Shown here in pieces: positions 31,146 to 52,379 of a DNA stretch of 64,000 bases (position 1 is its first letter; every line of letters starts with the position of its first letter). The position numbers and the translations under genes are program-made. Source of the stretch: Myxococcota bacterium (GTDB lineage Bacteria; Myxococcota_A; Polyangia; JAAYKL01); the NCBI GenBank assembly GCA_028278265.1, contig JANQET010000041.1:18702-82701 (forward strand). Direction: 5' to 3'. The notes under the pieces are model-generated. The model made no database searches, had not been told where the DNA came from, and saw nothing but the letters and a program-made list of their open reading frames with translations.

Positions 31146-31161
31146 TGGCACTGCCTTTGCT
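31146..31161 (+). promoter_or_regulatory. Sigma-54 (RpoN) promoter, -24/-12 elements TGGCAC-N5-TTGCT
   Basis: Perfect match to the TGGCAC-N5-TTGCW consensus. AGGAGG ribosome-binding site at 31174-31179 and ATG at 31186 of the NifX-like gene follow. Confidence 0.7.
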
Positions 31162-35100: not shown

Positions 35101-35234
35101 GGGCTTTCGCACCAAGGATCAGTAGGTGTCCAAGACAGGCCGAAAGTCGCGTGATAAACCAGCGGTGGGAGGCCATCCAAGTAATTGGGTGGATTGTCCC
35201 GAGGGATAGCTTCACTTTTCTCCGAGAGGCTGAC

Positions 35235-36641
35235 TCAGCGATTCGCTGATTCGATGCGGTGTTTTTTCATCTTGCGCCAGAGGGTGGTGCGGCTGATTTG
35301 CAGCGCCTGGGCGGTTTTTCCCAGATGACCCCGATTCGCCTTGAGGGCGTTGCGAATCACTTCCACCTCGGCCAATTGCAACTGTGACGGTGGCTGCTCC
35401 TCTCTGGTACCCTCCGGACATTCGTCGAGCGGGATCACGTCCTCGGGGAGATGGTGGAGATCGATTGTGCCGTTGTGACACAGCACGAAGCCGTATTCGA
35501 TGATGTTCTCCAGCTCTCGGACGTTGCCGGGAAAATCGTGGCGCATCAATGCCTCCATCACCGCGGGCGTGACCCCGGCGATCCGTTTGCCCCGTTTGGC
35601 ATTGAAGCGTTGGACAAAGTGATCGACGAGCAGGGGGATGTCCCCCCGGCGTTTACAGAGCGGCGGAATGTTGAGGCGAATCACGGCCAGGCGGAAGTAG
35701 AGATCATCGCGAAATTGATCCTCGCTGACCATCGCAGCCAACTTGCGATTGGTCGCCGCAACGACCCGCACATTGGCCTTGAGCGTCTTGGTCCCCCCGA
35801 GCGGTTCGTACTCCCGCTCCTGCAGGACGCGCAGCAGCTTGACCTGGGTCGGCGGCGGCAGCTCGGCCACCTCGTCGAAAAAGATCGTGCCCCGTTCGGC
35901 CAGGGCAATGCGGCCTGGCTTGGAGCGCTTGGCATCGGTAAAGGCCCCTTGCACGTAGCCGAACAACTCGGACTCGAACAGATTGGCCGGCAGGGTGCCG
36001 CAGTTGACCACCACGTAGGGTTCGTTGCTGCGGGTGCTCAGATTGTGCACCGCCCGAGCCAGCAGCTCCTTGCCCGAGCCGCTCGGTCCTTCAATCAGCA
36101 CGGTGGATTCACTTTCGGCGATGTCGGGCAGGATGGCGAAGATCTTCTGGAACGCCTCGCTCTTGCCGACAATATCCTCGAAGGTGTACCGATTGGTGAT
36201 CTCCCGGCGTAGCTGTTCAATCGCCGACAGATCGCGAAACGTCTCCACCGCGCCCAATAGATTTCCCTCGTCGTCGTGCATCGCCGCAGTGCTGACGCTG
36301 ATCGGAATAGAGCGGCCCTGGCGGTCGAGAATTCTGGCGGGCAGGTCGATCTGCTCACAACCGGTCTTGAGCGTCTGGCGCAGGGCGCACCCCCGCTCGC
36401 AGATATTGGCGTGAAACACGTCGGAGCAGCGCCGGCCGATGGCCTCGGCGGCAGACATTCCGGTGATACGCTCTGCCGCGCGATTGAATGAGGTGATGCG
36501 CCACTGTCGATCCACGGTGAACACCCCGTCGGCGATGGAGTTCAAGATGGTTTCGGTAAATCTCTTTTCTTTGTCCGGACTGAGCAATATCGGTTGCTGG
36601 GGTTCTGCTGGGGTCACTGATCCTCCTGGTGAAACGTTCAT
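35235..36641 (-). CDS. Sigma-54-dependent Fis-family transcriptional activator with N-terminal Cys-containing PAS domain
   Basis: PAS domain (FTVDRQWRITSFNRAAERITGMSAAEAIGRRCSDVFHANICERGCALRQTL). AAA+ sigma-54 motifs (GPSGSGKELLARAVH, GAFTDA, GTIFFDEV). C-terminal HTH (LGKTAQALQISRTTLWRKMKKH). Confidence 0.85.
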   Translation of the reverse strand: MNVSPGGSVTPAEPQQPILLSPDKEKRFTETILNSIADGVFTVDRQWRITSFNRAAERITGMSAAEAIGRRCSDVFHANICERGCALRQTLKTGCEQIDLPARILDRQGRSIPISVSTAAMHDDEGNLLGAVETFRDLSAIEQLRREITNRYTFEDIVGKSEAFQKIFAILPDIAESESTVLIEGPSGSGKELLARAVHNLSTRSNEPYVVVNCGTLPANLFESELFGYVQGAFTDAKRSKPGRIALAERGTIFFDEVAELPPPTQVKLLRVLQEREYEPLGGTKTLKANVRVVAATNRKLAAMVSEDQFRDDLYFRLAVIRLNIPPLCKRRGDIPLLVDHFVQRFNAKRGKRIAGVTPAVMEALMRHDFPGNVRELENIIEYGFVLCHNGTIDLHHLPEDVIPLDECPEGTREEQPPSQLQLAEVEVIRNALKANRGHLGKTAQALQISRTTLWRKMKKHRIESANR

Positions 36642-36817
36642 CTCCTATTGTGCAAAAAAGCAACATTCGTACCGCACGACGGCGTCGGGATGATTGTCCC
36701 GGGAACGCTGGTGTTCATCGTCATCAAACAACGACTCACCAATGCGCTTGTGTTTCAATGGTGAGCCGCTTCGGTGAAACATGAAACAATTTGAAACAGC
36801 GGGTGAATCAGTCGGGA

Positions 36818-37231
36818 TCAACCGAGGATTTTGGCAATCGTCTTCAACAGCTCTTGTTGGTCAATTGGCTTGGGGATGAATCCGTCAGGCGGTGGGGCCG
36901 ACTTGCGGGAGTTCAGAAATCGTTTGAACGGCTCGGGATCTTTGCCGTAGTAAGTCACCGCAGTCACCACGACCACCGGGATATCCGATAGGCCGGGTTG
37001 GGCTTTCAAATCCCGGTAGAAGCGAATGCCCGATTGCTCCGGCATCGTGATATCGAGACAGACCAAGTCGGGTTTGCTTCGCTCCACCGCCTCCATCGCC
37101 TCCCGTCCATTGGATGCGGTCTCGGTTTCGTAACCGTTGTCCTCCAGCAGGGTCTTGATGTAGGTCACCACGTGGGGTTCGTCGTCGACCACCAATATCG
37201 TCTTTTTCGTTTGGGGTGTTGTGTCGGTCAT
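36818..37231 (-). CDS. Single-domain response regulator (CheY-like receiver)
   Basis: MTDTTPQTKKTILVVDDEPHVV...LVCLDITMPEQSG...PVVVVTA...KP receiver motifs. Confidence 0.75.
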   Translation of the reverse strand: MTDTTPQTKKTILVVDDEPHVVTYIKTLLEDNGYETETASNGREAMEAVERSKPDLVCLDITMPEQSGIRFYRDLKAQPGLSDIPVVVVTAVTYYGKDPEPFKRFLNSRKSAPPPDGFIPKPIDQQELLKTIAKILG

Positions 37232-37312
37232 CCGGTCTCTCCTTCGACAGGGATCATTGTTCCCCCGGGTTAGGGACAGTCGTGTCAATCGACCACTGTC
37301 CCGCAACCGGGA

Positions 37313-37840
37313 TCAGTCCTTCACCCTGTTTTTCAGTGCGGCAAGCGCTTGTTGCAGCGCCTCGGGACTGGCGCTTCGAATCTCCTTTTGCAAGGACTCC
37401 TTGAGCGTGAGCTTCTGTTCTTCCGCCGGGGATTCCTCAATCCCCAACGCCCGCTGGACACTGCGCACATAGGACATCGGCTGGACCGGCTTTTCCAAGT
37501 AAGTGCCCGGACCGGACATCACCCGGTTTTGCAGCAGATCGTCGAGATCCCGTTTTCCCAGCTCGTCCTTGGCATGGGCGGTGACAATGAGCACGGGAAT
37601 GCGCGACAACACCTTGTCCTTCTTGAGCTCGTACAGCAGTTGGTGGCCGGTCTTCTTGGGCATCAGCAGATCCAATGAGATGAAATCCGGCGGGTCGGAT
37701 CGGATCATCTCCAGCGCCTGTTGGCCATCGGGCGCCGTAACGACGTTGAACCCGGCATCTTCGAGAATGGCCCGCAGGTAGTGCCGCACATCCGGCTCGT
37801 CATCGACCACGAGAATTGTTTTGTCCTGTGCCCGTTCCAC
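37313..37840 (-). CDS. Single-domain response regulator (receiver) with short C-terminal extension
   Basis: KTILVVDDEPDVRHYL...FISLDLLMPKKTG...PVLIVTAHA...KP. Confidence 0.75.
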   Translation of the reverse strand: MERAQDKTILVVDDEPDVRHYLRAILEDAGFNVVTAPDGQQALEMIRSDPPDFISLDLLMPKKTGHQLLYELKKDKVLSRIPVLIVTAHAKDELGKRDLDDLLQNRVMSGPGTYLEKPVQPMSYVRSVQRALGIEESPAEEQKLTLKESLQKEIRSASPEALQQALAALKNRVKD

Positions 37841-37842
37841 GT

Positions 37843-38991
37843 CTATTCCTCCTCGTCCTCACCGCCTGTCTTCGAAACAGGGGGAAGGGTTTGCGAGCGG
37901 TGCGAGTCGTTCAGTCGGTTTAATTTGTCTCTGGCGAACTCCAAACGAAACACCGATCCCCGGCCGCTGCTAGAGTCAAACGACACCTTGCCCCCGTGAG
38001 CCAGGACTATTTTTCGCGTTGTCAACAACCCCAATCCGGTGCCCCGATCCGAGCCCTTGGTGGAGAAGAAGTTGGTAAACACCTTCTTGGCGATTTCCGA
38101 GTCGATGCCGATGCCGTCGTCTTTGACTGCAAAGATCACTGTTCCCTCGCGCTCATAGACCGACACCTCGACCCGACCGTTCTCCTTGACGCTCATCTCG
38201 CAGGCATCCAGGGCGTTGGAGACCAGGTTGGCCAGGCAGGTGTGTATCCCCTCCTCGTCCAACGGCGCGGCAGCGATGGTTTCGTCGAGAGTGGTGACGA
38301 GCTCGATACCGGCGAGGGCCGCCCCGTCGGCGAACAGCTCGACCACCTTGGCGGCGATGCGGTTGGGATCAGTGGGGCAGACTTCGATCGGTCGACCCTT
38401 GGCGAAATCGAGAAACTCTTTGACGAAGGAGGAGATGCGCGCGATGTTCTCCTCGAGCATGTCCCACCCCTCGAGCATGCGATCCATGTCCCCTTTTTGA
38501 ATGCCCGTGCGGGCCATGTACATCCCGCCGTCCAGGCCGGTGATCACGTTCTTGATCCCGTGGGCCAACCCGGCCACCGTTTGTCCGACCACGGCCAAGC
38601 GCTCGGCTTGTCGCTTCTCCTGCTCCAAGGTCTTGGTCTCGGTGATATCGGTGGACATCTCGATAATGAAGGGGATTTCCCCATCCGGATGAACCAACGG
38701 CACCATGTGCACCAGGTAGTGGATTGCGCTGCCGTCCTGGGAGACCCCTTGCTCCTCCCGGATACGGAGCTGGCCATCGGCAAAGGTGTTCGCTGCGGCG
38801 CACTCCTGACAGCGGGCGGTGCGGTCCTTGTAAACCGCGTAGCACGGTCGGTTGCGCCACTGGCCATAGGTCTGGGCAAAGGTCTGATTCGCTTCGATGA
38901 TGCGGTACTCCCGGTTGATCACGCTGATACTGACCGGAACCTGATCCCACAACTCGGTGCGGACCCAGTGCTTGACATCCGGGGTAATCAC
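37843..38991 (-). CDS. Cytoplasmic PAS-domain sensor histidine kinase
   Basis: PAS domain with Cys triad (RPCYAVYKDRTARCQECAA). HisKA H-box (RLAVVGQTVAGLAHGIKNV). HATPase motifs (NLVSNALDA, DDGIGI, GTGLGL). The start overlaps the upstream gene (ATGA). Confidence 0.8.
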   Translation of the reverse strand: MITPDVKHWVRTELWDQVPVSISVINREYRIIEANQTFAQTYGQWRNRPCYAVYKDRTARCQECAAANTFADGQLRIREEQGVSQDGSAIHYLVHMVPLVHPDGEIPFIIEMSTDITETKTLEQEKRQAERLAVVGQTVAGLAHGIKNVITGLDGGMYMARTGIQKGDMDRMLEGWDMLEENIARISSFVKEFLDFAKGRPIEVCPTDPNRIAAKVVELFADGAALAGIELVTTLDETIAAAPLDEEGIHTCLANLVSNALDACEMSVKENGRVEVSVYEREGTVIFAVKDDGIGIDSEIAKKVFTNFFSTKGSDRGTGLGLLTTRKIVLAHGGKVSFDSSSGRGSVFRLEFARDKLNRLNDSHRSQTLPPVSKTGGEDEEE

Positions 38992-40883
38992 TTGGTGTCA
39001 CCCGGTTTTGCCGGAGCGGCGTAGGGGCCGATATGTCGCCAGGACGCCACTGCTTGCTTCTGATGACACAAGGCGCAGTCGCCGGTGCTGGGTTCAGTGG
39101 CGTCGGCCGCGGATTCCCGTTGATGGCAGCTGATGCATAGTCCATGCATCGCATCCAAGTAGCCGACGGCCAGGCCGGTCGACCCACCGGTAGGCGGAGT
39201 GATGGACGACCCCGTCACGATCATCCCCTGGTGGCAATCGGCACACGGCGTGGCGGTCTCACGGGTTTTCACCTGGTCCGCATTTCGATGACAGCGACTG
39301 CAGCCCTGTCGGCCCTCGAGGTGGTTGATGTGACTGGAGTGATCAAAAATATCGGTGGCCAAGTACATGTCACGATGGCAGTCGCTGCAAGCGCTTTGGG
39401 AGTCAAAGGGCAACCGTTGGTGGTGGCACATCTCGCACGCCTCTTTGTCGCCGAGATCTTCGACGTGCTGATCGTGGGCGAACAGAACCCCTCTCCCGTC
39501 CCGGTTGCCGTCCACCACCATCAGGCGGGCCGCGGAATGGTCGATCAGCTTGCCCTCGATCGTCCGGGGGGCCGAAACCGGCGTGGCCGCCAATTGGGCG
39601 CCGAACAGGTCACCGTCGGCGAGCAGAAAAATTGCCCCCACGGCACCGAGCATCGCGGCCAGGGAATACCGGCGCGGTGCGGACATGCTGTGGGGCAGCA
39701 GCAGACGAAGGCTCCCGGCCAGCCGCGGAGCGACGGCGCCGGTCGGTTCGGGGGAGTGTGGCTCCTCATCTTCTGGATAGACCCGTAGCCGCTCCACCAA
39801 CCAGATGAAGACCATCAGCGCGCAGGCGACCACCCCCAGGCTGACCGCGATTTCGATCCAACTGGGAAAGTAGGAGACCCCATCGGGTCGACCAAAGGCC
39901 ACGATTGCCACGTCGAAGCGATACCCGATGACGCCGAAGACGGTCATCAGCGCGGTGACCAGCAGACCGGCCGAGCTGCTGCGCACCCGGGAGAACATCA
40001 GCAACAGTCCGGGCACCAGGGCACCGAGGGACAGCTCGAACCAAAAGAGCGCAGCCATCCCCGAACCATCGAACGCCTGGGCCAGCCCACCGCGCGTCGC
40101 CAAGTCGCCGAGACGCAGTGCCGCGTAGCCGAGGAGGACGGATCCGGCAGCCCGGCCCAGACCGGACAGCTGTTTGAGCTTGAGCGGGTGACCGAAGTAC
40201 CAGGCCGAGAAGAACGATTCCAGGGTAACCATCATCAATCCCAGGCCGATCGCCGAGATATAGAACAGGATCCAGATGATCGGGCTGTACCACAGGGGGT
40301 GCACCCGATGTGGGGCGATCAAAAACAGGGAGCCCAATGACGATTGGTGCAGGGTCGACAGCACGATGCCGGCGATGACCAGCACAATGGTCAGCTTTTT
40401 GATCAATCGATGGACCGTGCGGAACAGGGGGCGATTGAACAGCCGGTGTTCGAGAATCGCCGGACTGAACTCGAACAGCAGCACCGTGAGGTAGATCATC
40501 ACGCACATCGCCACTTCGAAGAGCACCGAGCGCGGTTGGGGGAAGACGATGGGATGCCAGATGTGCCAGGGCAGACCCAGGTCGTACAACAGACCGACCG
40601 CCACTGCGGCGTAGCCCAACAGGGCGGTGAGGATTGCCGGTCGGGCAAATCCTTTGTACTGCTCAAGGCGAAAGATGTAGACCGCCGCGGCGAGGACGAA
40701 TCCTCCGGCCGCCAGCGCCACCCCGGCCATCACATCAAAGGCGATCCAAAATCCCCAGGGAGTGGCGTCGTTTAACCCGGTGGTGGCCCCCAAGCCGCCG
40801 ACAAAACGGGCGATGGTCACCACGCCGAAGATACCGATCAGAGCCCACAGAACCGTTTTGAGAGTGCGCTGGCGAGTGGTCAT
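38988..40883 (-). CDS. NrfD/PsrC-family polytopic membrane subunit fused to a C-terminal hexaheme cytochrome c domain
   Basis: The N-terminal ~400 aa carry about 10 TM helices in NrfD/PsrC/DsrP style. The C-terminal domain has six CxxCH motifs (CEMCHH, CSDCHR, CSRCHR, CADCHQ, CISCHQ, CALCHQ). Confidence 0.75.
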   Translation of the reverse strand: MTTRQRTLKTVLWALIGIFGVVTIARFVGGLGATTGLNDATPWGFWIAFDVMAGVALAAGGFVLAAAVYIFRLEQYKGFARPAILTALLGYAAVAVGLLYDLGLPWHIWHPIVFPQPRSVLFEVAMCVMIYLTVLLFEFSPAILEHRLFNRPLFRTVHRLIKKLTIVLVIAGIVLSTLHQSSLGSLFLIAPHRVHPLWYSPIIWILFYISAIGLGLMMVTLESFFSAWYFGHPLKLKQLSGLGRAAGSVLLGYAALRLGDLATRGGLAQAFDGSGMAALFWFELSLGALVPGLLLMFSRVRSSSAGLLVTALMTVFGVIGYRFDVAIVAFGRPDGVSYFPSWIEIAVSLGVVACALMVFIWLVERLRVYPEDEEPHSPEPTGAVAPRLAGSLRLLLPHSMSAPRRYSLAAMLGAVGAIFLLADGDLFGAQLAATPVSAPRTIEGKLIDHSAARLMVVDGNRDGRGVLFAHDQHVEDLGDKEACEMCHHQRLPFDSQSACSDCHRDMYLATDIFDHSSHINHLEGRQGCSRCHRNADQVKTRETATPCADCHQGMIVTGSSITPPTGGSTGLAVGYLDAMHGLCISCHQRESAADATEPSTGDCALCHQKQAVASWRHIGPYAAPAKPGDTK

Positions 40884-41665
40884 GATTTTTTCTCTTTTTT
40901 GTCAGTAGCGGTCTCAACTGTCCCGGCCAGTTTCTGGCGACGGCCGGTAATCCACCACACTCCGGCCATTAGGCCACCCATTCCAAGAATGATCGGGGGC
41001 ACTTTGGACAACGCGGCCCAGGTGAGGTCGGGGAGCGGGGTGTCGCCGAGCTCGGGGTTCAGACTCAAAAAATCCAACGGGATGTCCGAGACGTAGAGCA
41101 CCGAGGTGCCCCCCACTTGGGTTTCGCCGTACACTTTGTCGATGTATTTTTTGGGATTGCGTTTTAGACGGTGATGGGCCTCTTCGCGCAATTGATCCCG
41201 CGGACCGAAAACGGTTGCCCCTTGGTCGCAAGCGTCGACACAGGCCGGTTGCCCGCCCGCCTCAATGCGCGAATAACACATCGTGCATTTGCGCACGTAG
41301 GGAATCGGCTTTTCCCAGTCGTAACGAGGAATGCCGTAGGGGCAGGCGACCATGCAGTAGCGGCAGCCCATGCATTTGTCCCCATCGTAGATCACCGGTC
41401 CCTGAGGAGTTTTCGTGAGGGCGCCGACGATGCAGGCCGAGACACAGGCCGGCTCGAGGCAGTGCCGGCACTGTTGACGGACGAAGCGGCCCCCCGATTT
41501 GGCCAGCACGGTGGTAAAGCGGGTCGACGAGAGATCGTCGATGCGGCGTTTCCAACGGCGGGGTAGATCCTTGCTCAGTTGATTCTCTTTTTTGCAGGCA
41601 TCGACACAGGCATTGCAGCCGATGCAGTGGGTTGTGTCGGTGAGGATAGCCTGACGGATGGTCAT
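40880..41665 (-). CDS. Four-cluster [4Fe-4S] ferredoxin-type subunit with C-terminal TM anchor (HybA/PsrB/DsrO/HmcB-like)
   Basis: CIGCNACVDAC, CRHCLEPACVSAC, CMGCRYCMVACP and CTMCYSRIEAGGQPACVDAC motifs. C-terminal hydrophobic helix (PPIILGMGGLMAGVWWI). Start MTIRQAIL overlaps the DsrM-like stop (ATGA). Confidence 0.75.
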   Translation of the reverse strand: MTIRQAILTDTTHCIGCNACVDACKKENQLSKDLPRRWKRRIDDLSSTRFTTVLAKSGGRFVRQQCRHCLEPACVSACIVGALTKTPQGPVIYDGDKCMGCRYCMVACPYGIPRYDWEKPIPYVRKCTMCYSRIEAGGQPACVDACDQGATVFGPRDQLREEAHHRLKRNPKKYIDKVYGETQVGGTSVLYVSDIPLDFLSLNPELGDTPLPDLTWAALSKVPPIILGMGGLMAGVWWITGRRQKLAGTVETATDKKEKKS

Positions 41666-42363
41666 ACGGGTTCCCCTTCTTTGTTCAACGCGATTGCCAC
41701 CTTGCTGCCCGCGTCCGACGGCCAATGCCAACCGATTTCGGAGACATATTGGGCACCGGGCAGGAGCACGGCGTGACTCAATTTGGAGAGCGGCATCAGT
41801 ACCAGTAAGAGGTTGGCGCTCATCACATGAACCAACAGGGTGGCATCATATGAAAACGGATTGACCCCTGGGTGCATCACGCCGAAGCCGGTGACGAACG
41901 GCACGGCGATCAGCAGGGGCAGGGCGTAGTCTTGAAAGCGGGACAGGTTGCGTGTCGCCCGTGCGGACAGCCGTTGAATCACCAGCGCCACCGCGGTGAC
42001 GATCGCCACCAGGGTCAGTACATCTGCCAGGTGGTTGGGAATCGCCGGCCAGGAGAGCCCCGTGCCACGGGCCCAGAGCACGATATGGCCCGCTAGAAAA
42101 ATCGGCACCACCAGGATGGCGATGTGGAACAGAATCGAGGTCGCGCTGAACAACCACTGACTCTTGAGCTTGCGCAGGGGAAAGAGCCAGTTGAGGGTGG
42201 CGACGAAGATTTGAAGCGTGGGGATGGTCCGGTCGCCGGCGCGCCGCAGGTGACGCCTGATTTCGAAAAACGTGACCAGCAGGTGGCGCAGGTAGCCGAG
42301 CACCATGAAACTGAAGGCGCCGATGAAAATCGGTCCTCTCGCCCATTCCAGCCAGGTTGCCAT
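41662..42363 (-). CDS. Membrane cytochrome b subunit (NarI/DsrM/HmcE-like)
   Basis: 233 aa with about 5 TM helices and conserved His residues (LFHIAILVV, LLVHVMSANLL). Sits directly after the HdrD/DsrK-like gene. Confidence 0.7.
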   Translation of the reverse strand: MATWLEWARGPIFIGAFSFMVLGYLRHLLVTFFEIRRHLRRAGDRTIPTLQIFVATLNWLFPLRKLKSQWLFSATSILFHIAILVVPIFLAGHIVLWARGTGLSWPAIPNHLADVLTLVAIVTAVALVIQRLSARATRNLSRFQDYALPLLIAVPFVTGFGVMHPGVNPFSYDATLLVHVMSANLLLVLMPLSKLSHAVLLPGAQYVSEIGWHWPSDAGSKVAIALNKEGEPV

Positions 42364-43824
42364 TTAGTCTCCTCCCGATTGTTCCGAGTGCTCTTCGGCA
42401 GTCGAAGACTCGTCGGTTGAACCGGTGTCGATTTTCAACTCGTCGCCGAAATCGATCACTTTCAACAACAGGTCGTGCAGCCCGACCACTTCCACGTCGT
42501 CGAGGTGATGGTCCTCGAGCACCTCTTTGAGCTGTTTCTTGCAATTGGCGCACGGTGCGACAACGAGAGAGGCCCCGGTGGCGCGGATCTGATCCGCCTT
42601 GCGTTTGCCCATCAGCTCGGTGCGAAAGGACCGAATTTCATCGATCGAGACCGTTCCTCCCCCACCACCGCAGCAGAAGTTCTCGGTCCGGTTGGGGGTC
42701 ATCTCGACAAAGTCGGTGCAAATCGCGCGCAGGATCTCACGGGGCTCTTCGAGGATGCGAGCAGAGCGGGCGATGTTGCAGGGGTCGTGGTAGGTGACCC
42801 GTTCGGTGATGCGATCCGGCTTGAGCGGAATGTTGCCCCGGCGCAATTGTTCGGCGGTGTATTGCAGAAAATTGACCACCGGCGGCGCCTCGGGTCCACA
42901 AAAGGTAGGGATGAACCAGGCGCTGCGGGTGGCGTGACCGCATTCACCGATCAGCACCTTTTGACCCTCGAGCCGACGGACCTCGGCGACCTCGTTTTGC
43001 ACGATACGCTCCATCAATCGATCGCTGTAAAACAGGCCGTAGTTGATGCCGTCATAGTTGCCGGTACCGATGGTCCATGATCCCCCGGTCACCGCCATCA
43101 CCGCGGCGTTGCCCATCAGGGTGTCCGGCTCCAGCAGGTAATCCGAGACCGCGGGAAAAAAGACGTACTCCGCACCTTTGACGTCGATCGGGAATTTGAT
43201 GTTGACGCCGTAGTCGTCCTGAAATTCCTCTTCGAGAAACTCGCAGGTGTTTTTGAGCGCGTTCGGCGGAATCGCCGAGGTGTTGCCCACCCCTTCGAGC
43301 TGTTCGCGGGTCGCCACGACCAACGCTTTGGGCACCACGCCCACTTCGGCCAACAGCCAGCGGGCCAGGTGGGTCACCAGGCCGTGATCCACGCCCATCG
43401 GGCAGGTCAGTTTGCAGCGCCGACAAGCCGTGCACCGATAAAAGGCTTCGGCCATTTCGTCGAGGTAGTCGTCAGTTAGGGTGAAGCCGTTGGTCAACCT
43501 CGCTTTGAGCAAACCGGTGCGGGTGAAGTAGCGGCGGTAGACGCGAAACAGCAGCTCTGACCGCTGGCAGGGAATATCCCGGTTCTCTTCGGTGCTTTGA
43601 TACAACTGACAGGCCGCCGCACACCGGCTGCACTTGGTGCTCAGGCGGGTGTAGAGCTCCAGGGCCAAGCCATAGCTGGAGTGATCCAGCACCGCCGCAA
43701 AGGCAGCGAGAAATTTTTGCGGGCGGTCAGTCACCTCTAAGGCGCTACGCTCGACATAGAAACTGTACTTGGTTCTGGTATCGTCCATCCTATCCGTTCC
43801 CCTGTGGTTTGTTTCCATCATCAT
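42364..43824 (-). CDS. HdrD/DsrK/HmcF-like Fe-S oxidoreductase with CCG domains
   Basis: Fe-S motifs (CSRCAAACQLYQST, CTACRRCKLTCPMG). CCG-domain signatures include NFCCGGGGG and CGHATRS...CANC. The start is possibly the internal Met at 43788. Confidence 0.75.
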   Translation of the reverse strand: MMMETNHRGTDRMDDTRTKYSFYVERSALEVTDRPQKFLAAFAAVLDHSSYGLALELYTRLSTKCSRCAAACQLYQSTEENRDIPCQRSELLFRVYRRYFTRTGLLKARLTNGFTLTDDYLDEMAEAFYRCTACRRCKLTCPMGVDHGLVTHLARWLLAEVGVVPKALVVATREQLEGVGNTSAIPPNALKNTCEFLEEEFQDDYGVNIKFPIDVKGAEYVFFPAVSDYLLEPDTLMGNAAVMAVTGGSWTIGTGNYDGINYGLFYSDRLMERIVQNEVAEVRRLEGQKVLIGECGHATRSAWFIPTFCGPEAPPVVNFLQYTAEQLRRGNIPLKPDRITERVTYHDPCNIARSARILEEPREILRAICTDFVEMTPNRTENFCCGGGGGTVSIDEIRSFRTELMGKRKADQIRATGASLVVAPCANCKKQLKEVLEDHHLDDVEVVGLHDLLLKVIDFGDELKIDTGSTDESSTAEEHSEQSGGD

Positions 43825-44161
43825 CGTGCATGGGCTTGACCGGGCGCCGCGATCCCGATGTCAACCGATTGTCGATGAACCGTCGCACCAGCGCCTCGGC
43901 ATTGCCCGACACCCAAGAGATGGCCCGAATGCCGTTGGCCAAAATCAGATCCTCGAACCGATCCTGGATCCCCCCGCAGATCAACACGTCGACCCCCTGA
44001 TCCTTGAGCAGCCGCAGCCGATCAAAGGGCCGCTGACTCTGCAGGACAAAGTCGGTCTGGTCGGTGATCACCCCGGCCTCGATGGTAAAAATCGCGATCG
44101 TGGCCGAATACTCGAAACACGGGGCAACTTCTTCTCCAAAACGCGGGATGGCGACTTTCAC
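43790..44161 (-). CDS. NifX/NafY-like FeMo-cofactor-binding family small protein (GTG start)
   Basis: MKVAIPRFGEEVAPCFEYSATIAIFTIE...VLICGGI, the same family as 31186..32009. A ribosome-binding site GAGGTGAGG precedes the GTG. First gene of the long minus-strand operon. Confidence 0.5.
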   Translation of the reverse strand: MKVAIPRFGEEVAPCFEYSATIAIFTIEAGVITDQTDFVLQSQRPFDRLRLLKDQGVDVLICGGIQDRFEDLILANGIRAISWVSGNAEALVRRFIDNRLTSGSRRPVKPMHDDDGNKPQGNG

Positions 44162-44190
44162 TTTGCCTCACCTCTCCTGCCATTTACCCA

Positions 44191-44207
44191 GCGCAATTTC
44201 CGGGCCA
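44191..44207 (-). promoter_or_regulatory. Sigma-54 promoter (minus strand: TGGCCC-N5-TTGCGC)
   Basis: The reverse complement of 44191-44207 reads TGGCCCggaaaTTGCGC, with GG-N10-GC spacing preserved. About 30 nt upstream of the GTG at 44161. Confidence 0.5.
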
Positions 44208-44330
44208 GTCTGCGGCTAGACAAATTGTCTTTTACTTATCGATTACCGTTGAATTGACAGGACCAGGGCGTGTCACAGATGCGAAACAAGGGGGTGTTTC
44301 AATGGTTCATTTGTGAAACATCGGAGGGAA

Positions 44331-47300
44331 TCAGCGCTCACTCCAGGCCGGTGAACCGAAGAGATCGTCGGAAATGGCGGCGTTCAGGGCGACCTTTTCG
44401 ATTTGATACTCTTCCCTGTCGATCAGCCTGCGCTCCCAGGGGTTGACGCGGTAGGTTCTGAAGCGCACGCGGTGTGGAATCCGAATGCCTTGGACGGTTT
44501 GGTAATCCCCGTATTGTTCGATGTAAATAAGGGTCGGCCGGTTGTCGTTCCAGCTGAGACGCAACTCTTGTTGAAGCAAGAGATCGGTCTGCTGATCGAA
44601 GTACTCCACAACGACCACCCCGCTCGGTCGTCTTTTTTCGACCACGTGGACCGGGGTGCCATCGACCTCGGTCATTCGCACATCGCTGATGGTCTCATAG
44701 TGCTGTCGCCAACCGGTGAATGGGTTGAACAGGGCGTACTGACGCAGGGCGTCGTTTTTCAACTCGCCGAGATCCCCCGTGGGGAAGCGGGTATTCCATT
44801 GGTGGGAGGTGTTGCCGTCGAACACAATGCGACTGCGGGTCACTTCCCGCTTGAATGCGGTGTAGATCCGCTCCTGGCACAGTCGGTTCTCCTGATCCCG
44901 GTACTCCGCCATCCTGCCGCTCATCCCGTCCAGCGGACGTTGGAGGCGATAGTGCAGCACCATTGAGCGGAGGTCGGCGATGGCGTCGGCATTGTGCGCT
45001 TTTGCAGCACGGGCCTCCAAGTCGGCGGGGGTGATCGTCGGCGCCTGTTCCTCCAGCTTGTTCAGCTCTATCGTTCGATCCATGAATCGATAACGGGCAC
45101 CGATGATCCTTCCGGCAGCATCTCGCCTCATCTCAATCGCAATATCTTCTCGGGTCGCCACAAACCCATAGGTGTCAGCCGGTGTCCCTTCGCGATGGAT
45201 CAACGCCAGGGGAACTTTGCCGGGTTCGATCAGACTGAGCGTTCCTTCATTGGGTGTGATGCGGTAGTCCACTGATTGGTCTGCCGGCTGGTAACTGCCG
45301 ACCAATTCCATTAATTCGGCCGGCAGCGGACGGTTGGTCGCAGCGGCGATCAGCCGGGGGGTCAATTGGCGATAGACCACCGTACCGTACGGTCGCTCGA
45401 ACACCAGCTCGCTCATCTTCGGATTCTGCTTGCTGGGGCGGAACGTCACGTAAAATCCTTCGGGTGGATCGCTCCACCGGTATTTCCGATCGGCCTCCGG
45501 GAGCAACGTCTGGACGGGTAAGCCCTTACTGTGCATGGTCAGATAGCCATCGCGCCAACGGATCTCATACTTGATCCCGCCGAGCACACCGTACAGCCCG
45601 GCCTCTTCGGCGGCGCCTGCGGGATAGGCCGGTTTGTCCGGCTGGTCCGTGCTGTCGAGCAGTGCGAACACCTGAGTGGTAACGAAGTCGACGATTTGCG
45701 GGGCGTCGTCCCGGTTGACCAACAAGGCAAAGCCCAGCCGTTTGCCCGGCAACAGACCGATCATCGACAGAAATCCCTCCCCGCGACCCGGGTGCCCCAG
45801 TTGCAGGTCTCCCTGCCGATCTCTGAGCATCCAGCCCAACCGGTAGTCCTCGACAGCATGGGGCGGAATCCACTGCGCCATTTTTTGAGGAGAGATCAGC
45901 TGTACGTTCTCGAGACGACCTCCGTTGAGCAACAGGCGCAGCCAGCGGGCCAGATCGTCGGCCGAGGCGATGATCCCGGTGGAAGAGGCATAGCTGTCCG
46001 AGGAAAAGCTGCCGACCGGTTGAACGCCGACGGTTTGGCTCAGCTTGCGATATCCCACCGCGGCGAGCGGTTCATTCACCATCGAGGACTGGGTCGCGCG
46101 CGCCTTTTTCATGCCCAAGGGATCGAAGATCCGGGCTTGCACCAGCTGTTCGTACGGTTGGCCCAGGGCGCCGGCAGCGCACTCTCCGGCGACCACCATC
46201 ATGGTCTGTTGATATTGGAACGCTTTTCCCAGCTCAGCGGTCGGCTCTGCCTGACCGAGGAGCCGGATCGATTCTTCACGGGACAGACGACCCGCCCAGT
46301 AGGACATGTCGACATCGGCCAATCCGGTGGTGTGGTTGAGCAGGTGGCGGATGGTGACGGCGTCGTTGGCCGCGGGATCTTTCAGCGAGAAATAGGGCAG
46401 CCAGTCTCTCGGGGAGTCGTCGAGGCTGAGGTTTCCCTCCTCTTCGGCCATCAACAGCAGGGCCGAGGTAAAGCCCCAGGTCATCTGATTGATCGGAAAA
46501 ACGGTATCGGTGGTCACCGGGAGCTGTTGCGCTGCGTTGCGAACCCCATGCCCCTTGGCGTAGATGACTTGATCGTCTTTTACGACGACCAGCGCCAAAC
46601 CGGGAATATCCAGCGCCTCCCGCTTGGCGGCCACCGCCTCGTCCAAACGCGCCAGTCGTGTTTCCATTTCTGTATCCGAAACGAACGGCTGGGCCGATTT
46701 ATTGCTCCGATTGGAGAGGGTCATGCAGCCCACGGCAATGATCACGCCGCAGGCCAGCCAGGACCAGCGGTACGCGTCACGCTTGAAAAATGTGATCATT
46801 TTGATCCTCCTTTTGAGTTGGGATTTGTCCTCCAACACCCCCACCAGATTGGGCAATCCGCGAGGCCTGCCCAAACGGGTCAGCATGTTGACGATGGTGT
46901 GTCCGTAGGATGCCGGTGTGTGGAGCTCCATGGCGCTCAGGGCCAGACTGTCCGTGGCCAGCTCTTGGTCGAGCCGCAGGCGCGCAAAACCGAACCAGAC
47001 GAACGGGTTGAACCAGTGCGCCACCTGGAGCAGCGCCAATACCCAACCGAGTGGGATGTCGTGACGTTTGAGATGGGCCAGTTCGTGAAAGAACACGTGG
47101 CGCAGCTCCTCGCGGGAGAGGGAGTCGATCAGCCCTGTCGGCAGCAGCAAGCGGGGGCGAACAAATCCGAACAGGGCCGGGGTGCGAACCGTGTCGGTCT
47201 CCACGATCGCCAGCACGGTTTGAACCTTCATCTGCTCCTTGCAGTTCTCCAGTAGCGTCAGTACCGCTTGGTCCACCACCGGTCGTCGCCGTTTCACCTC

Positions 47301-52224: not shown

Positions 52225-52379
52225 CGCCTAATCACAGTGTTAATAGCACGTGTGACGTTTCAATTCAACTTAATTGAAACATTTTGTTTCGTTGATAACG
52301 GTATTATGAGACATTGTTGAAACTATTTTGAAACAAAGAACAGACTGTTTCAGGTATCATTTACCACTTCGATTTCACA

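What the first reader, a model, noticed from the sequence alone, without database searches (positions are those of the whole stretch)
36818..44207. Sigma-54-driven operon encoding a DsrMKJOP/Hmc-like membrane redox complex (NrfD subunit fused to a hexaheme cytochrome c) co-transcribed with a PAS kinase and two receivers
Minus-strand gene order, with overlapping or abutting stops and starts, is below.

- NifX-like small protein (43790..44161)
- HdrD/DsrK-like CCG protein (42364..43824)
- NarI/DsrM-like cytochrome b (41662..42363)
- HybA/DsrO-like 4x[4Fe-4S] subunit (40880..41665)
- NrfD/DsrP-like membrane protein fused to six CxxCH hemes (38988..40883)
- PAS histidine kinase (37843..38991)
- Two CheY-like receivers (37313..37840 and 36818..37231)
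- Divergently, a PAS sigma-54 activator (35235..36641)

The subunit set is that of DsrMKJOP/HmcABCDEF quinone-interacting transmembrane electron-transfer complexes. Here the cytochrome c (DsrJ/HmcA equivalent) is fused to the NrfD subunit and has six hemes. The Fe-S subunit lacks an obvious Tat motif.

Translational coupling to a two-component system suggests the complex may act as, or feed, a redox sensor rather than only conserving energy. A sigma-54 promoter candidate (TGGCCC-N5-TTGCGC) lies at 44191-44207.
Basis: partly seen in the sequence, partly recalled or inferred. Interest (0 to 1): 0.65.

Follow-up and report, generated by a model that had tools for sequence, protein, structure and literature searches.

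The report
Self-regulated Hmc/Dsr-like membrane redox cassette
This is a real nine-gene cassette, conserved across several phyla of uncultured bacteria, that encodes an undescribed fused variant of the membrane electron-transfer complexes known from sulfate reducers, together with its own sigma-54 activator, kinase and two receivers.

Summary
All ORFs and domain calls are correct, six CxxCH motifs are present, and the junctions are tight. One detail is wrong: the PAS sigma-54 activator is co-directional and downstream, not divergent.

The gene order nifX-like, DsrK/HdrD-like, cytochrome b, 4x[4Fe-4S] subunit, NrfD::hexaheme, PAS kinase, receiver, receiver recurs co-linearly in 43 loci. These come from Myxococcota, Planctomycetota, Acidobacteriota, Gemmatimonadota, Deferrimicrobia and Riflebacteria, and all are MAGs.

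The sigma-54 motif alone is no better than chance. However, a GG-N10-GC element sits 40-57 nt upstream of the first gene in 33 of 34 relatives, with TGTTTCA/TGAAACA repeats further upstream.

Every subunit scores below the NCBIfam cut-offs for Hmc, Tmc and Dsr. The cassette is therefore a distinct family in that class.

The lack of a Tat signal on the Fe-S subunit is conserved family-wide and remains unexplained.

Eight related loci lie directly beside sat, aprBA or qmo genes, which points to dissimilatory sulfur metabolism. This window shows no such genes.

The most likely function is a quinone-linked transmembrane electron conduit to a cytoplasmic DsrK-like reductase. The "redox sensor" idea is neither shown nor excluded. 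I found no prior description. Verdict: new variant of a known kind, moderate-to-high interest.

The parts
44271..44320 (-). Upstream activator sites (inferred binding sites of the PAS activator): TGTTTCA-N12-TGAAACA at 44295-44320, plus TGTTTCG..TGTGACA at 44271-44288
   Evidence: The palindrome is found once at this site with 0 mismatches against 0.2 expected in the window, and the repeat finder reports it as I1. TGAAAC/GTTTCA hexamers are about 30-fold enriched at -260..-90 in 31 of 35 related loci.
44192..44207 (-). Sigma-54 -24/-12 promoter P1: TGGCCCGGAAATTGCG, 46 nt upstream of the nifX-like GTG start
   Evidence: The sequence is shown. Alone it is not above chance. An equivalent GG-N10-GC element lies at -40..-57 in 33 of 34 related loci from several phyla.
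43790..44161 (-). Small NifX/ORP-like protein (Nitro_FeMo-Co domain) with two conserved Cys (C15, C62). It is the first gene of the operon.
   Evidence: Pfam PF02579 matches at E 1.4e-6. NCBIfam matches the MrpORP C-terminal domain. The gene is present upstream of hdrD in 35 loci.
42364..43824 (-). Cytoplasmic DsrK/HmcF/TmcB-like iron-sulfur protein with two [4Fe-4S] motifs and one CCG domain. It is the putative catalytic thiol/sulfur reductase. The start may be the ATG at 43788.
   Evidence: Pfam finds CCG and Fer4_8. NCBIfam scores are DsrK 278 bits (cut-off 400), HmcF 213 and TmcB 202. Conserved Cys are C65/68/72/86, C131/134/137/141, C349/384/385/425/428 and C295/C369. Identity to relatives across phyla is 59-84%.
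41662..42363 (-). NarI/TmcC/HmcE-like membrane cytochrome b. It has 5 predicted TM helices (N-out, C-in) and four conserved His for two hemes b.
   Evidence: NCBIfam scores are TmcC 117 bits and HmcE 107 bits, both below cut-off. Hydropathy and positive-inside analysis give the topology. H80, H93, H179 and H197 are conserved in at least 90% of 44 sequences.
40880..41665 (-). HmcB/HybA-like 4x[4Fe-4S] subunit with a C-terminal TM anchor and no Tat signal
   Evidence: Pfam finds Fer4_11. NCBIfam scores are HmcB 256 bits (cut-off 420) and HybA 191. All 16 Cys are conserved. No signal peptide is seen in ~76 homologs. The alignment to E. coli HybA starts at HybA residue 39. The C-terminal tail carries 7 K/R residues.
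38988..40883 (-). Fusion protein: a HybB/HmcC-type NrfD membrane domain of 10 TM helices, an eleventh TM helix (about residues 404-426), and a periplasmic hexaheme cytochrome c domain (residues ~430-631)
   Evidence: Domain calls come from Pfam and NCBIfam. Six CxxCH and six distal His are invariant. Identity to E. coli HybB is 36%, with R89, Y99, E148, H184 and the quinone-site residues conserved. The AF2 model shows 10+1 helices. The best fold match is ActC of alternative complex III. The K/R distribution gives N-in and the heme domain out.
37843..38991 (-). Soluble PAS histidine kinase with conserved C50-x10-C61-x2-C64 in the PAS domain and H144 as phospho-acceptor. Its start overlaps the fusion gene's stop by 4 nt.
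   Evidence: Pfam finds PAS_4 and HATPase_c. The kinase core resembles ThkA 3a0r. No solved PAS domain carries this motif.
37313..37840 (-). Stand-alone receiver RR1 (175 aa) with a conserved C-terminal extension
   Evidence: Pfam finds Response_reg. The best NCBIfam family is DVU0259_DivK at 78 bits, below the 160 cut-off. Identity to relatives is 60-73%.
36818..37231 (-). Stand-alone receiver RR2 (137 aa)
   Evidence: Pfam finds Response_reg. DVU0259_DivK scores 104 bits, below cut-off. The ATG at 37231 matches the independent gene call in L001.
36729..36770 (-). Hairpin followed by UUGUUUG: a possible intrinsic terminator of the nifX-RR2 transcript. It overlaps one activator half-site.
   Evidence: Inverted repeat I1 is reported. 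The RNA fold is -20.2 kcal/mol with z = -2.4. The simple terminator scan did not call it.
36751..36798 (-). Second set of activator-type repeats: three TGTTTCA and one TGAAACA, upstream of the activator gene
   Evidence: Sequence is.
36659..36674 (-). Second -24/-12-like element: cGGtACgaatgTTGCt (P2), upstream of the activator gene
   Evidence: Reported. It is only a candidate, because most relatives lack an equivalent upstream of their activator gene.
35235..36641 (-). PAS sigma-54 enhancer-binding protein with no receiver domain. The PAS domain has a conserved C72-x4-H77-x3-C81-x3-C85. The likely true start is the GTG at 36617.
   Evidence: Pfam finds PAS, Sigma54_activat, AAA_lid_14 and HTH_8. 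The gene call on L001 starts at the position equivalent to 36617. In relatives the orthologue (65-74% identity) lies upstream of the nifX-like gene.

Best explanation
**What it is.** The region is a self-contained, laterally distributed cassette. It encodes a four-polypeptide transmembrane redox complex of the Hmc/Tmc/DsrMKJOP class together with its own regulators.

**Anatomy shown here.**
- A HybB/HmcC-type NrfD quinone module with 10 TM helices. The quinone-site and proton-path residues are conserved.
- An eleventh helix tethers six bis-His c-type hemes on the periplasmic side.
- A tail-anchored 4x[4Fe-4S] subunit.
- A diheme NarI-type cytochrome b.
- A cytoplasmic DsrK-like protein with two cubane-cluster motifs and one CCG (non-cubane cluster) site.

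**Mechanism (inferred).** The inference is by analogy with the A. fulgidus DsrMKJOP structure (bioRxiv 10.64898/2026.08.25.746951).
- Electrons pass between the menaquinone pool at the NrfD P-side site, the Fe-S subunit and the hemes c.
- They then cross the membrane through the two hemes b to the CCG subunit.
- The CCG subunit reduces a cytoplasmic disulfide or sulfur-carrier substrate. Candidates are a DsrC-like protein or the co-encoded two-cysteine NifX-like protein.
- The chain could equally run in the reverse direction.
- The periplasmic hemes could also accept electrons from soluble donors, as proposed for Hmc.

**Pathway context.** In several lineages the complex sits within sat-aprBA-qmo clusters. 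Its likeliest role there is dissimilatory sulfur metabolism.

**Regulation.**
- Supported by comparative evidence: a sigma-54 promoter with TGTTTCA/TGAAACA upstream sites drives nifX through RR2.
- Inferred: the PAS activator, which has no receiver domain and carries a Cys3His motif, binds these sites. In this window it also appears to regulate itself.
- Inferred: the co-transcribed soluble PAS kinase (Cys3 motif) and the two stand-alone receivers add a second, probably redox-responsive, control layer.
For: - Domain and family assignments.
- Cofactor ligands are invariant across 44-80 homologs.
- Topology: the positive-inside analysis and the AF2 model with 10+1 helices place the heme domain outside.
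- Fold: the best match is ActC of alternative complex III, E 8e-10.
- HybB functional residues R89, Y99, E148, H184 and quinone-site residues D58, D109, S129, E133, S190 align to invariant R81, Y91, E138, H179 and D50, D101, S119, E123, S185. Their functional importance is taken from PMC8076601.
- The nine-gene order is conserved in 43 loci from at least 6 phyla, with variable flanks and tight junctions.
- The promoter is conserved in 33 of 34 loci. The upstream hexamers are 30-fold enriched.
- sat, aprB, aprA and qmoC pass NCBIfam equivalog cut-offs directly beside the cassette. Eight loci from Myxococcota, Deferrimicrobia, Acidobacteriota and Riflebacteria show such adjacency.
- About ten loci, mostly Gemmatimonadota MAGs, carry an extra DsrK-like gene next to the cassette; the one member tested (L060) scores DsrK 319.6 bits.
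Against: - No subunit reaches the equivalog cut-off of Dsr, Hmc or Tmc, so the substrate cannot be transferred by homology.
- The Fe-S subunit has no Tat signal in any homolog, and no Tat-signal partner is encoded in the cassette. Its periplasmic location, which the proposed electron path needs, is therefore unproven.
- Among the window ORFs I scanned with Pfam, and in a tblastn of the window with sat, aprA, aprB and qmo queries, no sulfur-metabolism gene was found.
- No DsrC-like ORF was found in any flank.
- Most loci (about 74 of 82) have no adjacent sulfur genes.
- The direction of electron flow is unknown. The HybB/HmcC/QrcD clade is thought to act mainly as quinone reductases (PMC6303296).
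- There are no expression or biochemical data.
Confidence: 0.6

Rival explanations
1. Redox-sensing device. The membrane complex is mainly the input module of the two-component system. The redox state of the quinone pool or periplasm is relayed through the hemes and Fe-S clusters to the DsrK-like subunit or the NifX-like protein. That in turn changes the Cys-rich PAS domain of the kinase, so signalling output, not energy conservation, is the point.
For: - The kinase and two receivers follow the fusion gene co-directionally in 43 loci across phyla, often with overlapping or near-abutting junctions.
- Both PAS domains carry conserved Cys motifs compatible with a metal or Fe-S cofactor.
- The receivers have no output domain.
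- The activator has no receiver domain.
Against: - The kinase has no TM segment and no domain known to dock to such complexes.
- In L010 the redox genes are followed by aprBA instead of the kinase.
- In Phycisphaerae the FeS-NrfD::hexaheme pair occurs with a large multiheme cytochrome and no kinase.
- A complex with about 27 redox centres and conserved HybB proton-path residues is more elaborate than a sensor would need.
- Regulators encoded with respiratory operons are common (Geobacter cbcBA, bioRxiv 10.1101/2021.04.15.440034).
Confidence: 0.15
2. Periplasmic or extracellular electron-output module. The FeS-NrfD::hexaheme unit is a quinol dehydrogenase that feeds periplasmic or extracellular acceptors such as metals or other cytochromes. 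The cytochrome b plus DsrK-like pair is a separate quinone-linked enzyme that merely shares the operon.
For: - In the Phycisphaerae/Planctomycetales subfamily, the one locus examined in detail (L028) has the same FeS-NrfD::hexaheme pair followed by an 848-aa multiheme cytochrome, with no DsrK-like gene. The other loci of that subfamily also show no DsrK-like hit.
- Modules of a tail-anchored Fe-S protein, a HybB-like protein and a cytochrome c are described as stand-alone units (bioRxiv 10.1101/2023.11.02.564894).
- The MBNT15/Deferrimicrobium genome paper proposes similar modules for iron reduction (PMC9386147).
Against: - In the subfamily of this window the four redox genes are always together, with 4-nt overlaps.
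- The DsrK-like subunit is its most conserved protein, at up to 84% identity.
- In DsrMKJOP the hemes c contact the cytochrome b directly (bioRxiv 10.64898/2026.08.25.746951), which gives a precedent for a single complex.
- No outer-membrane or large multiheme cytochrome genes are in the cassette or its flanks here.
Confidence: 0.12
3. Inverted or non-canonical arrangement. Because it has no Tat signal, the Fe-S subunit stays in the cytoplasm. There it serves the DsrK-like/cytochrome b side, for example as an extra electron entry point from cytoplasmic donors. The NrfD::hexaheme protein then works without a bound Fe-S partner.
For: - The Tat signal is absent in all ~76 homologs and in the alignment to HybA.
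- No Tat-signal-bearing partner is encoded in the conserved cassette.
Against: - The C-terminal TM helix is followed by a K/R-rich tail (7 of 21 residues). That favours C-in and N-out.
- The subunit is homologous over its whole length, including the C-tail, to HmcB/HybA, which are periplasmic (bioRxiv 10.1101/2023.11.02.564894).
- The FeS and NrfD genes overlap by 4-7 nt in 42 of 43 loci, as in all known NrfD modules.
- Signal-less C-tail Fe-S proteins are known to be exported by hitchhiking (FdnH) or proposed to be (a FeFe-hydrogenase case, same preprint).
Confidence: 0.1

Closest known systems
HmcABCDEF (high-molecular-weight cytochrome complex of Desulfovibrio/Nitratidesulfovibrio vulgaris)
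   Same: - It has the same set of modules: a periplasmic multiheme cytochrome c, a tail-anchored 4x[4Fe-4S] protein, a 10-TM HybB-like NrfD subunit, a NarI-like cytochrome b and a cytoplasmic CCG iron-sulfur protein.
- HmcB and HmcC are the best NCBIfam hits for the Fe-S and NrfD parts.
- Regulator genes (rrf1, a response regulator, and rrf2) lie downstream of hmc (bioRxiv 10.1101/2023.11.02.564894).
   Different: - The cytochrome has 6 hemes rather than 16 and is fused to the C-terminus of the NrfD subunit through an extra TM helix.
- There is no HmcD.
- The Fe-S subunit has no Tat signal.
- All scores are below the equivalog cut-offs: 256 against 420, 318 against 550, 107 against 275 and 213 against 750.
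- The cassette adds a NifX-like gene, a PAS kinase, two receivers and a sigma-54 activator.
DsrMKJOP (DsrC-trisulfide reductase complex of dissimilatory sulfate/sulfite reduction)
   Same: - It has the same five functional modules and probably the same cofactor chain: quinone site, Fe-S subunit, hemes c, hemes b, CCG subunit.
- DsrK is the best NCBIfam hit for the CCG subunit, at 278 bits.
- Both have a single CCG domain.
- Several related loci are embedded in sat-aprBA-qmo clusters.
   Different: - DsrJ is a separate triheme protein with a His/Cys heme. Here there are six hemes with six conserved distal His, fused to the NrfD subunit.
- DsrO has a Tat signal.
- DsrO scores only 112 bits against a cut-off of 200, and DsrP and DsrM do not appear among the hits.
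- No dsrAB or dsrC is seen nearby.
TmcABCD and its neighbouring DVU0258-0260 regulators (D. vulgaris)
   Same: - TmcC is the best hit for the cytochrome b, at 117 bits.
- TmcB is a close hit for the CCG subunit.
- Both receivers hit best the NCBIfam family named after DVU0259. From my own knowledge, DVU0259 lies next to the tmc operon.
   Different: - Tmc has no NrfD or Fe-S pair.
- Its cytochrome is a separate tetraheme c3.
- TmcD is absent here.
- All scores are below cut-off.
E. coli hydrogenase-2 membrane module HybA/HybB
   Same: - Identity is 36% over the whole NrfD domain and over the Fe-S domain.
- The HybB residues needed for proton transfer and quinone binding are conserved (PMC8076601).
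   Different: - No hydrogenase subunits are encoded.
- HybA carries a Tat signal that is missing here.
- HybB has no heme domain.
Geobacter sulfurreducens cbcBA operon with BccR
   Same: A sigma-54-dependent operon for an inner-membrane b/c-type cytochrome complex that includes a response regulator gene and has a dedicated enhancer-binding protein next to it (bioRxiv 10.1101/2021.04.15.440034).
   Different: - The redox proteins are unrelated: CbcB is a HydC/FdnI-like diheme b and CbcA is a heptaheme.
- BccR has a receiver domain, whereas the activator here has a PAS domain and no receiver.
- Geobacter Cbc6 (CbcMNOPQR) may be Hmc-like. That is from my memory only and was not tested.

Membership tests
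DsrMKJOP | DsrK equivalog (NCBIfam NF045796, cut-off 400 bits) | tested here: not met
   278.3 bits. It is the best-scoring family but falls below the cut-off.
DsrMKJOP | Single functional CCG / non-cubane cluster domain in the catalytic subunit | tested here: met
   Pfam finds one CCG stretch at residues 343-433. Cys 349, 384, 385, 425 and 428 are conserved. The N-terminal half-domain keeps only C295.
DsrMKJOP | Separate triheme DsrJ with one His/Cys-ligated heme | tested here: not met
   There are six CxxCH with six conserved distal His, and the domain is fused to NrfD.
DsrMKJOP | DsrO (Tat-exported Fe-S subunit) and DsrP equivalogs | tested here: not met
   DsrO scores 112 bits against a cut-off of 200. 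There is no Tat signal, and no DsrP hit is listed.
DsrMKJOP | Genomic association with dsrAB/dsrC | tested here: inconclusive
   No sat/apr/qmo homologue was found in the 64-kb window, and no DsrC-like tail was found in the window or the flanks; dsrAB itself was not searched for. Eight related loci adjoin sat, aprBA or qmo. Whole genomes were not available.
HmcABCDEF | 16-heme HmcA as a separate periplasmic subunit | tested here: not met
   The domain has six hemes and is fused. HmcA scores 30 bits against a cut-off of 400.
HmcABCDEF | HmcB, HmcC, HmcE and HmcF equivalog scores | tested here: not met
   Scores against cut-offs are 256 of 420, 318 of 550, 107 of 275 and 213 of 750. These are the best or near-best families but fall below cut-off.
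HmcABCDEF | Small hydrophobic subunit HmcD | tested here: not met
   There is no extra ORF between the FeS/NrfD and cytochrome b genes. The junctions overlap.
TmcABCD | TmcB and TmcC equivalogs, tetraheme TmcA, TmcD | tested here: not met
   Scores against cut-offs are 202 of 735 and 117 of 240. No TmcA-like or TmcD-like genes are present.
NrfD/PsrC family, 10-TM HybB/HmcC/QrcD clade | NrfD Pfam domain, 10 TM helices, no cofactor ligands, conserved quinone-site and proton-path residues | tested here: met
   - PF03916 scores 65.7 bits against a cut-off of 25.8.
- The model and hydropathy show 10 helices.
- The fold matches ActC.
- HybB residues R89, Y99, E148, H184, D58, D109, S129 and E133 are conserved.
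Tat-dependent tail-anchored Fe-S proteins (HybA/HmcB type) | N-terminal twin-arginine signal peptide plus a C-terminal TM anchor | tested here: not met
   The C-tail is present and the signal is absent in all homologs. The subunit resembles the signal-less hitchhiker type (FdnH), but no signal-bearing partner is encoded nearby.
Sigma-54-dependent operon | -24 GG / -12 GC element at correct spacing upstream of the first gene, plus a cognate bEBP with upstream binding sites | tested here: met
   The sequence is present and positionally conserved in 33 of 34 loci. The repeats are enriched 30-fold. The bEBP gene is in the cassette. Transcription itself is not testable with these tools.
Two-component system | Phospho-acceptor His in the kinase; Asp pocket, Thr and Lys in the receivers | tested here: met
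   H144 lies in AHGIKN. Both receivers have DD, D, T and K conserved in 44 sequences. Phosphotransfer specificity is not testable here.

The most novel reading that the evidence does not exclude
The cassette is an unrecognised, horizontally spreading respiratory module, so far seen only in uncultured bacteria. The collection scan confirmed 470 matching stretches in GTDB species genomes, and all 80 best are MAGs.

On this reading it provides the membrane link between the quinone pool or periplasm and cytoplasmic sulfur or thiol chemistry in the non-classical lineages that carry sat-apr-qmo/dsr genes (Acidobacteriota, Gemmatimonadota, Planctomycetota, Myxococcota, Riflebacteria, Deferrimicrobia).

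Its Fe-S subunit would reach the periplasm by a route that needs neither its own Tat signal nor a co-encoded partner. Its dedicated Cys-rich PAS kinase and activator would read the redox state generated by the complex itself.
Probability: 0.2. Interest if true: 0.8.

Novelty: new variant of a known kind. Interest (0 to 1): 0.58.

Why it matters
- Hmc, Tmc, Qrc and DsrMKJOP are the complexes through which sulfate reducers conserve energy. They have been defined almost entirely in Desulfovibrio and Archaeoglobus.
- Dissimilatory sulfur genes are now found in many uncultured phyla whose membrane electron-transfer components are unknown.
- This cassette is a compact and very conserved candidate for that role. 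The catalytic subunit is up to 84% identical across phyla.
- It comes with its promoter, activator sites and regulators, so it could be moved as a unit into a tractable host.
- It also poses a clear cell-biology question: how a tail-anchored four-cluster Fe-S protein without a Tat signal is placed.
- Finally, it offers two uncharacterised Cys-rich PAS sensor domains.

Tried and rejected
- **Motif count alone.** Counting sigma-54 consensus matches in the window gave no excess (32 against 31.9). I replaced this with positional conservation in relatives.
- **Heme-domain structure.** The AF2 model of the fusion has pLDDT below 50 in the heme domain, so I made no fold claim for it. Only the NrfD part was used.
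- **PDB sequence searches.** DsrMKJOP is not in the PDB copy. The nearest chain to the CCG subunit is 9ojn_A at E 2e-12. The heme domain hits only c3 and Hmc, weakly. The PAS domains have no solved relative with the Cys motifs.
- **Literature.** Eight full-text searches and seven papers read found no description of this fused cassette. The BBA 2021 review of NrfD modules by Duarte et al. is not held, so a prior mention there cannot be excluded.
- **DsrC-like ORFs.** Searching the flanks by the C-terminal Cys pattern found none.
- **Rfam.** A scan of 34800-44600 found nothing.
- **Upstream extension of the Fe-S gene.** I considered a hidden in-frame signal peptide and rejected it. The apparent conservation upstream is the cytochrome b C-terminus read in another frame, and it has no hydrophobic core.
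- **Source organism.** Exact-sequence look-ups returned no names. I ran no further search on it.
- **Stand-alone hexaheme domain.** A search of 1.84 billion representatives gave 360 hits. Most short ones look like fragments of fusions. A few, such as P0123 and P0129, could be unfused versions with an N-terminal anchor. This is unresolved.

Full report
**1. Observation**

Pfam and NCBIfam confirm each domain assignment:

| Gene | Coordinates | Domains |
|---|---|---|
| NifX/ORP-like | 43790-44161 | Nitro_FeMo-Co |
| CCG iron-sulfur protein | 42364-43824 | Fer4_8, one CCG domain |
| cytochrome b | 41662-42363 | NarI/TmcC/HmcE-like |
| Fe-S subunit | 40880-41665 | four-cluster ferredoxin-like |
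| NrfD::cytochrome c fusion | 38988-40883 | NrfD plus c3/c7-like domain |
| PAS histidine kinase | 37843-38991 | PAS_4, HATPase_c |
| receiver RR1 | 37313-37840 | Response_reg |
| receiver RR2 | 36818-37231 | Response_reg |
| PAS sigma-54 activator | 35235-36641 | PAS, Sigma54_activat, HTH_8 |

- The fusion protein has exactly six CxxCH motifs, all in its last 150 residues.
- The junctions are as tight as described. hdrD/cytb abut. Three junctions overlap by 4 nt. HK/RR1 has a 2-nt gap. The last two gaps are 81 and 176 nt.
- One statement is wrong: the activator is on the same strand, downstream of RR2, not divergent.
- An independent gene call on an identical metagenome contig starts the activator at the GTG at 36617 and RR2 at the ATG at 37231.

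**2. Is it more than chance?**

- The fusion protein has over 120 full-length relatives at 53-61% identity in the protein collection.
- The scan of one genome per GTDB species confirmed 470 matching stretches. The 80 best loci are all from MAGs.
- I mapped the window's nine proteins onto those loci. The order [activator]-nifX-hdrD-cytb-FeS-nrfD::cyt-HK-RR1-RR2 is kept co-linearly in 43 loci.
- These loci come from Myxococcota/Polyangia, Planctomycetota, Acidobacteriota, Gemmatimonadota, Deferrimicrobia (MBNT15), Riflebacteria and unclassified Thermodesulfobacteriota.
- Subunit identities are 50-84%. The CCG protein is the most conserved.
- Junction spacing is also conserved. cytb to FeS is -4 nt in 42 of 43 loci. 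FeS to nrfD is about -7 nt in 42 of 43. nrfD to HK lies within 40 nt in 35 of 43.
- The flanking genes differ from locus to locus. In this window they are BlaR1/BlaI-like, HAD hydrolase and RHS genes. The nine genes therefore behave as a self-contained cassette.

**3. Promoter and activator sites**

- The proposed -24/-12 element TGGCCCGGAAATTGCG (44192-44207) is no better than chance by itself. There are 32 matches at 2 or fewer mismatches against 31.9 expected.
- In 33 of 34 related loci, however, the best GG-N10-GC match in the 380 nt around the nifX-like start lies between -40 and -57. In the window it lies at -46. Random placement would not give this.
- Further upstream, TGAAAC/GTTTCA hexamers occur 1.94 times per 170 nt, against a background of 0.064. 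They are present in 31 of 35 loci and concentrate 140-180 nt before the start codon.
- The window has a perfect TGTTTCA-N12-TGAAACA at 44295-44320 (0.2 expected) and a second, degenerate pair at 44271-44288.
- These repeats are the likely binding sites of the cassette's activator. This is an inference.
- Unusually, this window has a second set between RR2 and the activator gene: three TGTTTCA and one TGAAACA at 36751-36798, plus cGGtACgaatgTTGCt at 36659-36674. Most relatives lack this, and there the activator lies upstream of nifX.
- A hairpin of -20 kcal/mol followed by UUGUUUG lies just after RR2.
- I therefore read the region as two units: nifX through RR2 from P1, and a possibly autoregulated activator gene.

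**4. Anatomy of the redox proteins**

*NrfD domain*
- It is 36% identical to E. coli HybB over its whole length.
- It keeps the residues reported to matter for proton transfer (HybB R89, Y99, E148, H184) and for quinone binding (D58, D109, S129, E133, S190; PMC8076601).
- The equivalent residues are invariant, or at least 90% conserved (S185), in 38 family members.
- Hydropathy with the positive-inside rule and the AF2 model (pLDDT 80-95 in this part) both give 10 TM helices with N- and C-termini inside.
- An eleventh helix (about residues 404-426, preceded by PRR) puts the heme domain outside.
- The best structural match is ActC of alternative complex III (E 8e-10).

*Heme domain*
- Six CxxCH and six further His (H470, 473, 488, 515, 518, 580) are invariant. 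This fits six bis-His hemes.
- The domain forms its own small family of 360 representatives at 50% clustering. It is found almost only at the C-terminus of NrfD proteins.

*Cytochrome b*
- It has 5 predicted helices (N-out, C-in) and four conserved His in helices 2 and 5.

*Fe-S subunit*
- It has 16 conserved Cys and a C-terminal TM helix followed by a K/R-rich tail.

*CCG protein*
- It has two cubane-cluster motifs, one complete CCG motif and two further conserved Cys.

**5. The unexplained feature: no Tat signal**

- HybA, HmcB, DsrO and NrfC are exported with their clusters by the Tat system. HybA and HmcB are then tail-anchored (bioRxiv 10.1101/2023.11.02.564894).
- Here the Fe-S protein begins 5-13 residues before its first cluster motif in every one of about 76 homologs, including the Phycisphaerae subfamily.
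- It aligns to HybA only from HybA residue 39.
- The charge distribution around the C-tail still predicts a periplasmic Fe-S domain. The parity of the NrfD topology agrees with that.
- Signal-less tail-anchored Fe-S proteins are known to hitchhike (FdnH with FdnG), and the same preprint proposes this for a FeFe-hydrogenase case. The cassette, however, encodes no signal-bearing partner.
- Either an unlinked partner is used, or the export route is new, or the subunit is cytoplasmic. I cannot decide between these.

**6. What it is and how it probably works**

- The module set is that of Hmc and DsrMKJOP.
- The cryo-EM structure of A. fulgidus DsrMKJOP shows one cofactor chain (bioRxiv 10.64898/2026.08.25.746951). 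It runs from the quinol site in DsrP through DsrO clusters, DsrJ hemes c and DsrM hemes to DsrK clusters and the non-cubane site.
- The same path fits this cassette. The fused hexaheme replaces DsrJ, and the tethering helix replaces DsrJ's anchor.
- The direction of flow is open. The HybB/HmcC/QrcD clade, to which this NrfD domain is closest, is thought to work mostly as electrogenic quinone reductases (PMC6303296). DsrP oxidises quinol.
- The cytoplasmic substrate is unknown. Candidates are a DsrC-type sulfur carrier or the co-translated NifX-like protein with two invariant Cys. Both are inferences.

**7. Link to sulfur metabolism**

- Eight of 82 loci have dissimilatory sulfate-pathway genes touching the cassette (for L068 and L080).
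- L068, L071 and L076 (Acidobacteriota) read sat-cassette-aprB-aprA-HdrA/QmoA-like. In L068, sat, aprB and aprA pass the NCBIfam equivalog cut-offs.
- L080 (Riflebacteria) reads qmoC-sat-activator-cassette, with a sulfate permease downstream. Its qmoC passes the cut-off.
- L022 (Deferrimicrobium) shows qmoC- and sat-like genes by tblastn (58% and 42% identity). L036 shows sat.
- In L010 (Polyangiaceae) the four redox genes are followed by aprB-aprA and a QmoA-like gene instead of the kinase.
- About ten loci, mostly Gemmatimonadota MAGs, carry an extra membrane protein plus DsrK-like pair next to the cassette. The one pair tested, in L060, scores DsrK 319.6 bits, below the 400 cut-off.
- This supports a role in dissimilatory sulfur metabolism in at least part of the family.
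- The window itself shows no such genes in 64 kb, among the ORFs I scanned and by tblastn with the sat, apr and qmo queries.
- No DsrC-like ORF was found in any flank. For this locus the link is therefore indirect.

**8. Regulators**

- The kinase has no TM segment. Its kinase core is ordinary and resembles ThkA.
- Its PAS domain has an invariant C-x10-C-x2-C motif.
- The activator has a PAS domain with C-x4-H-x3-C-x3-C and no receiver domain. Neither motif has a solved relative.
- Both receivers have complete phospho-acceptor pockets and no output domain.
- Their best NCBIfam family is the one named after DVU0259 (below cut-off). From my own knowledge, DVU0259 is a receiver encoded next to the tmc operon.
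- The conserved coupling fits a dedicated control circuit. Precedents are rrf1/rrf2 behind hmc and the sigma-54-dependent cbcBA operon of Geobacter, which has a receiver gene and the activator BccR (bioRxiv 10.1101/2021.04.15.440034).
- Nothing shows that the complex is itself the sensor. The redox genes also occur without the kinase (L010, Phycisphaerae).

**9. Comparison and novelty**

- Every subunit scores best against Hmc, Tmc or Dsr models but below each curated cut-off.
- The defining features of those families are not met: a 16-heme HmcA and HmcD; a triheme His/Cys DsrJ and Tat-DsrO; a tetraheme TmcA and TmcD.
- The cassette works like those complexes but is not a member of any of them.
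- Sources name the fusion only generically, as "Ni/Fe-hydrogenase cytochrome b subunit", "HybB-like" or "NrfD/PsrC family".
- Eight literature searches and seven papers gave no description. One relevant review could not be read.
- I rate it a new variant of a known kind. Its distinguishing features are the NrfD::hexaheme fusion, the family-wide loss of the Tat signal, the NifX-like first gene and the fixed regulatory set.

**10. Verdict**

- The structural interpretation is supported.
- The sensor interpretation is undecided.
- Interest is moderate to high (0.58). The cassette is widespread, uncharacterised and apparently mobile. It probably matters for sulfur and redox metabolism in uncultured phyla, and it carries a concrete unexplained feature. 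It nonetheless belongs to a well-known class of complexes.

Noticed in passing
window 50803-52224 (-), 52197-52212 (-), 52256-52281: A second PAS sigma-54 activator is 49% identical to the cassette's activator and has the same Cys motif ([16 protein letters not shown]). It is preceded by CGTTTCA-N12-TGAAACA and by a -24/-12 match, TGGCATTGCCTTTGCG. An HDOD/HD gene (52380-53228) lies upstream. Its target is unknown, and cross-talk with the cassette's sites is conceivable.
   Followed up: partly
window 31146-31161 (+): This is the only perfect match to the sigma-54 consensus in the window (TGGCACTGCCTTTGCT). It lies about 380 nt upstream of a 154-aa ORF at 31545-32009.
   Followed up: no
window 44331-47921 (-) and 47845-48234 (-): Directly upstream of the cassette lies a 1196-aa protein that combines a BlaR1 M56 peptidase domain with a serine beta-lactamase domain. 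A BlaI/Penicillinase_R repressor gene precedes it.
   Followed up: no
window 243-3017 (+) and 6409-11100 (+): The same 64 kb holds more signalling genes. One is a dCache-HAMP sigma-54 activator of 924 aa. Another is a 1563-aa hybrid kinase with Reg_prop/Y_Y_Y, receiver and SpoIIE phosphatase domains. In all, at least three sigma-54 activators lie in the window.
   Followed up: no
L028 6182-12550 (and L026-L044, L065-L072 generally): A Phycisphaerae/Planctomycetales subfamily carries the Tat-less Fe-S protein and the NrfD::hexaheme fusion, preceded by a weakly related membrane-protein gene. It has no DsrK-like gene, kinase or receivers. In L028, the one locus examined in detail, that membrane protein is 317 aa and an 848-aa multiheme cytochrome (Paired_CXXCH) follows the fusion gene.
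   Followed up: partly
L068 1566-3299 (-), also L071 and L076: A GltD/DsrL-like NAD(P)-binding iron-sulfur flavoprotein (NCBIfam PRK12771, above cut-off) lies next to sat in the Acidobacteriota loci that embed the cassette in a sat-aprBA-qmoA cluster.
   Followed up: no
L082 855-7091: In one long JGI contig the activator is separated from the rest of the cassette by a NosD/beta-helix protein on the opposite strand and a radical SAM gene. The linkage of the activator is therefore not absolute.
   Followed up: no
P0123, P0129 (hits): Some short proteins carry the hexaheme domain behind a single N-terminal hydrophobic helix. They may be unfused versions of the cytochrome, or they may be fragments of fusions from contig ends.
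   Followed up: partly
window 42364-43824 versus PDB 9ojn_A: The only solved chain with sequence similarity to the CCG subunit is a 1042-aa "iron-sulfur-binding reductase" (E 2e-12). The DsrMKJOP cryo-EM structure described in a 2026 preprint is not yet in the PDB copy.
   Followed up: no
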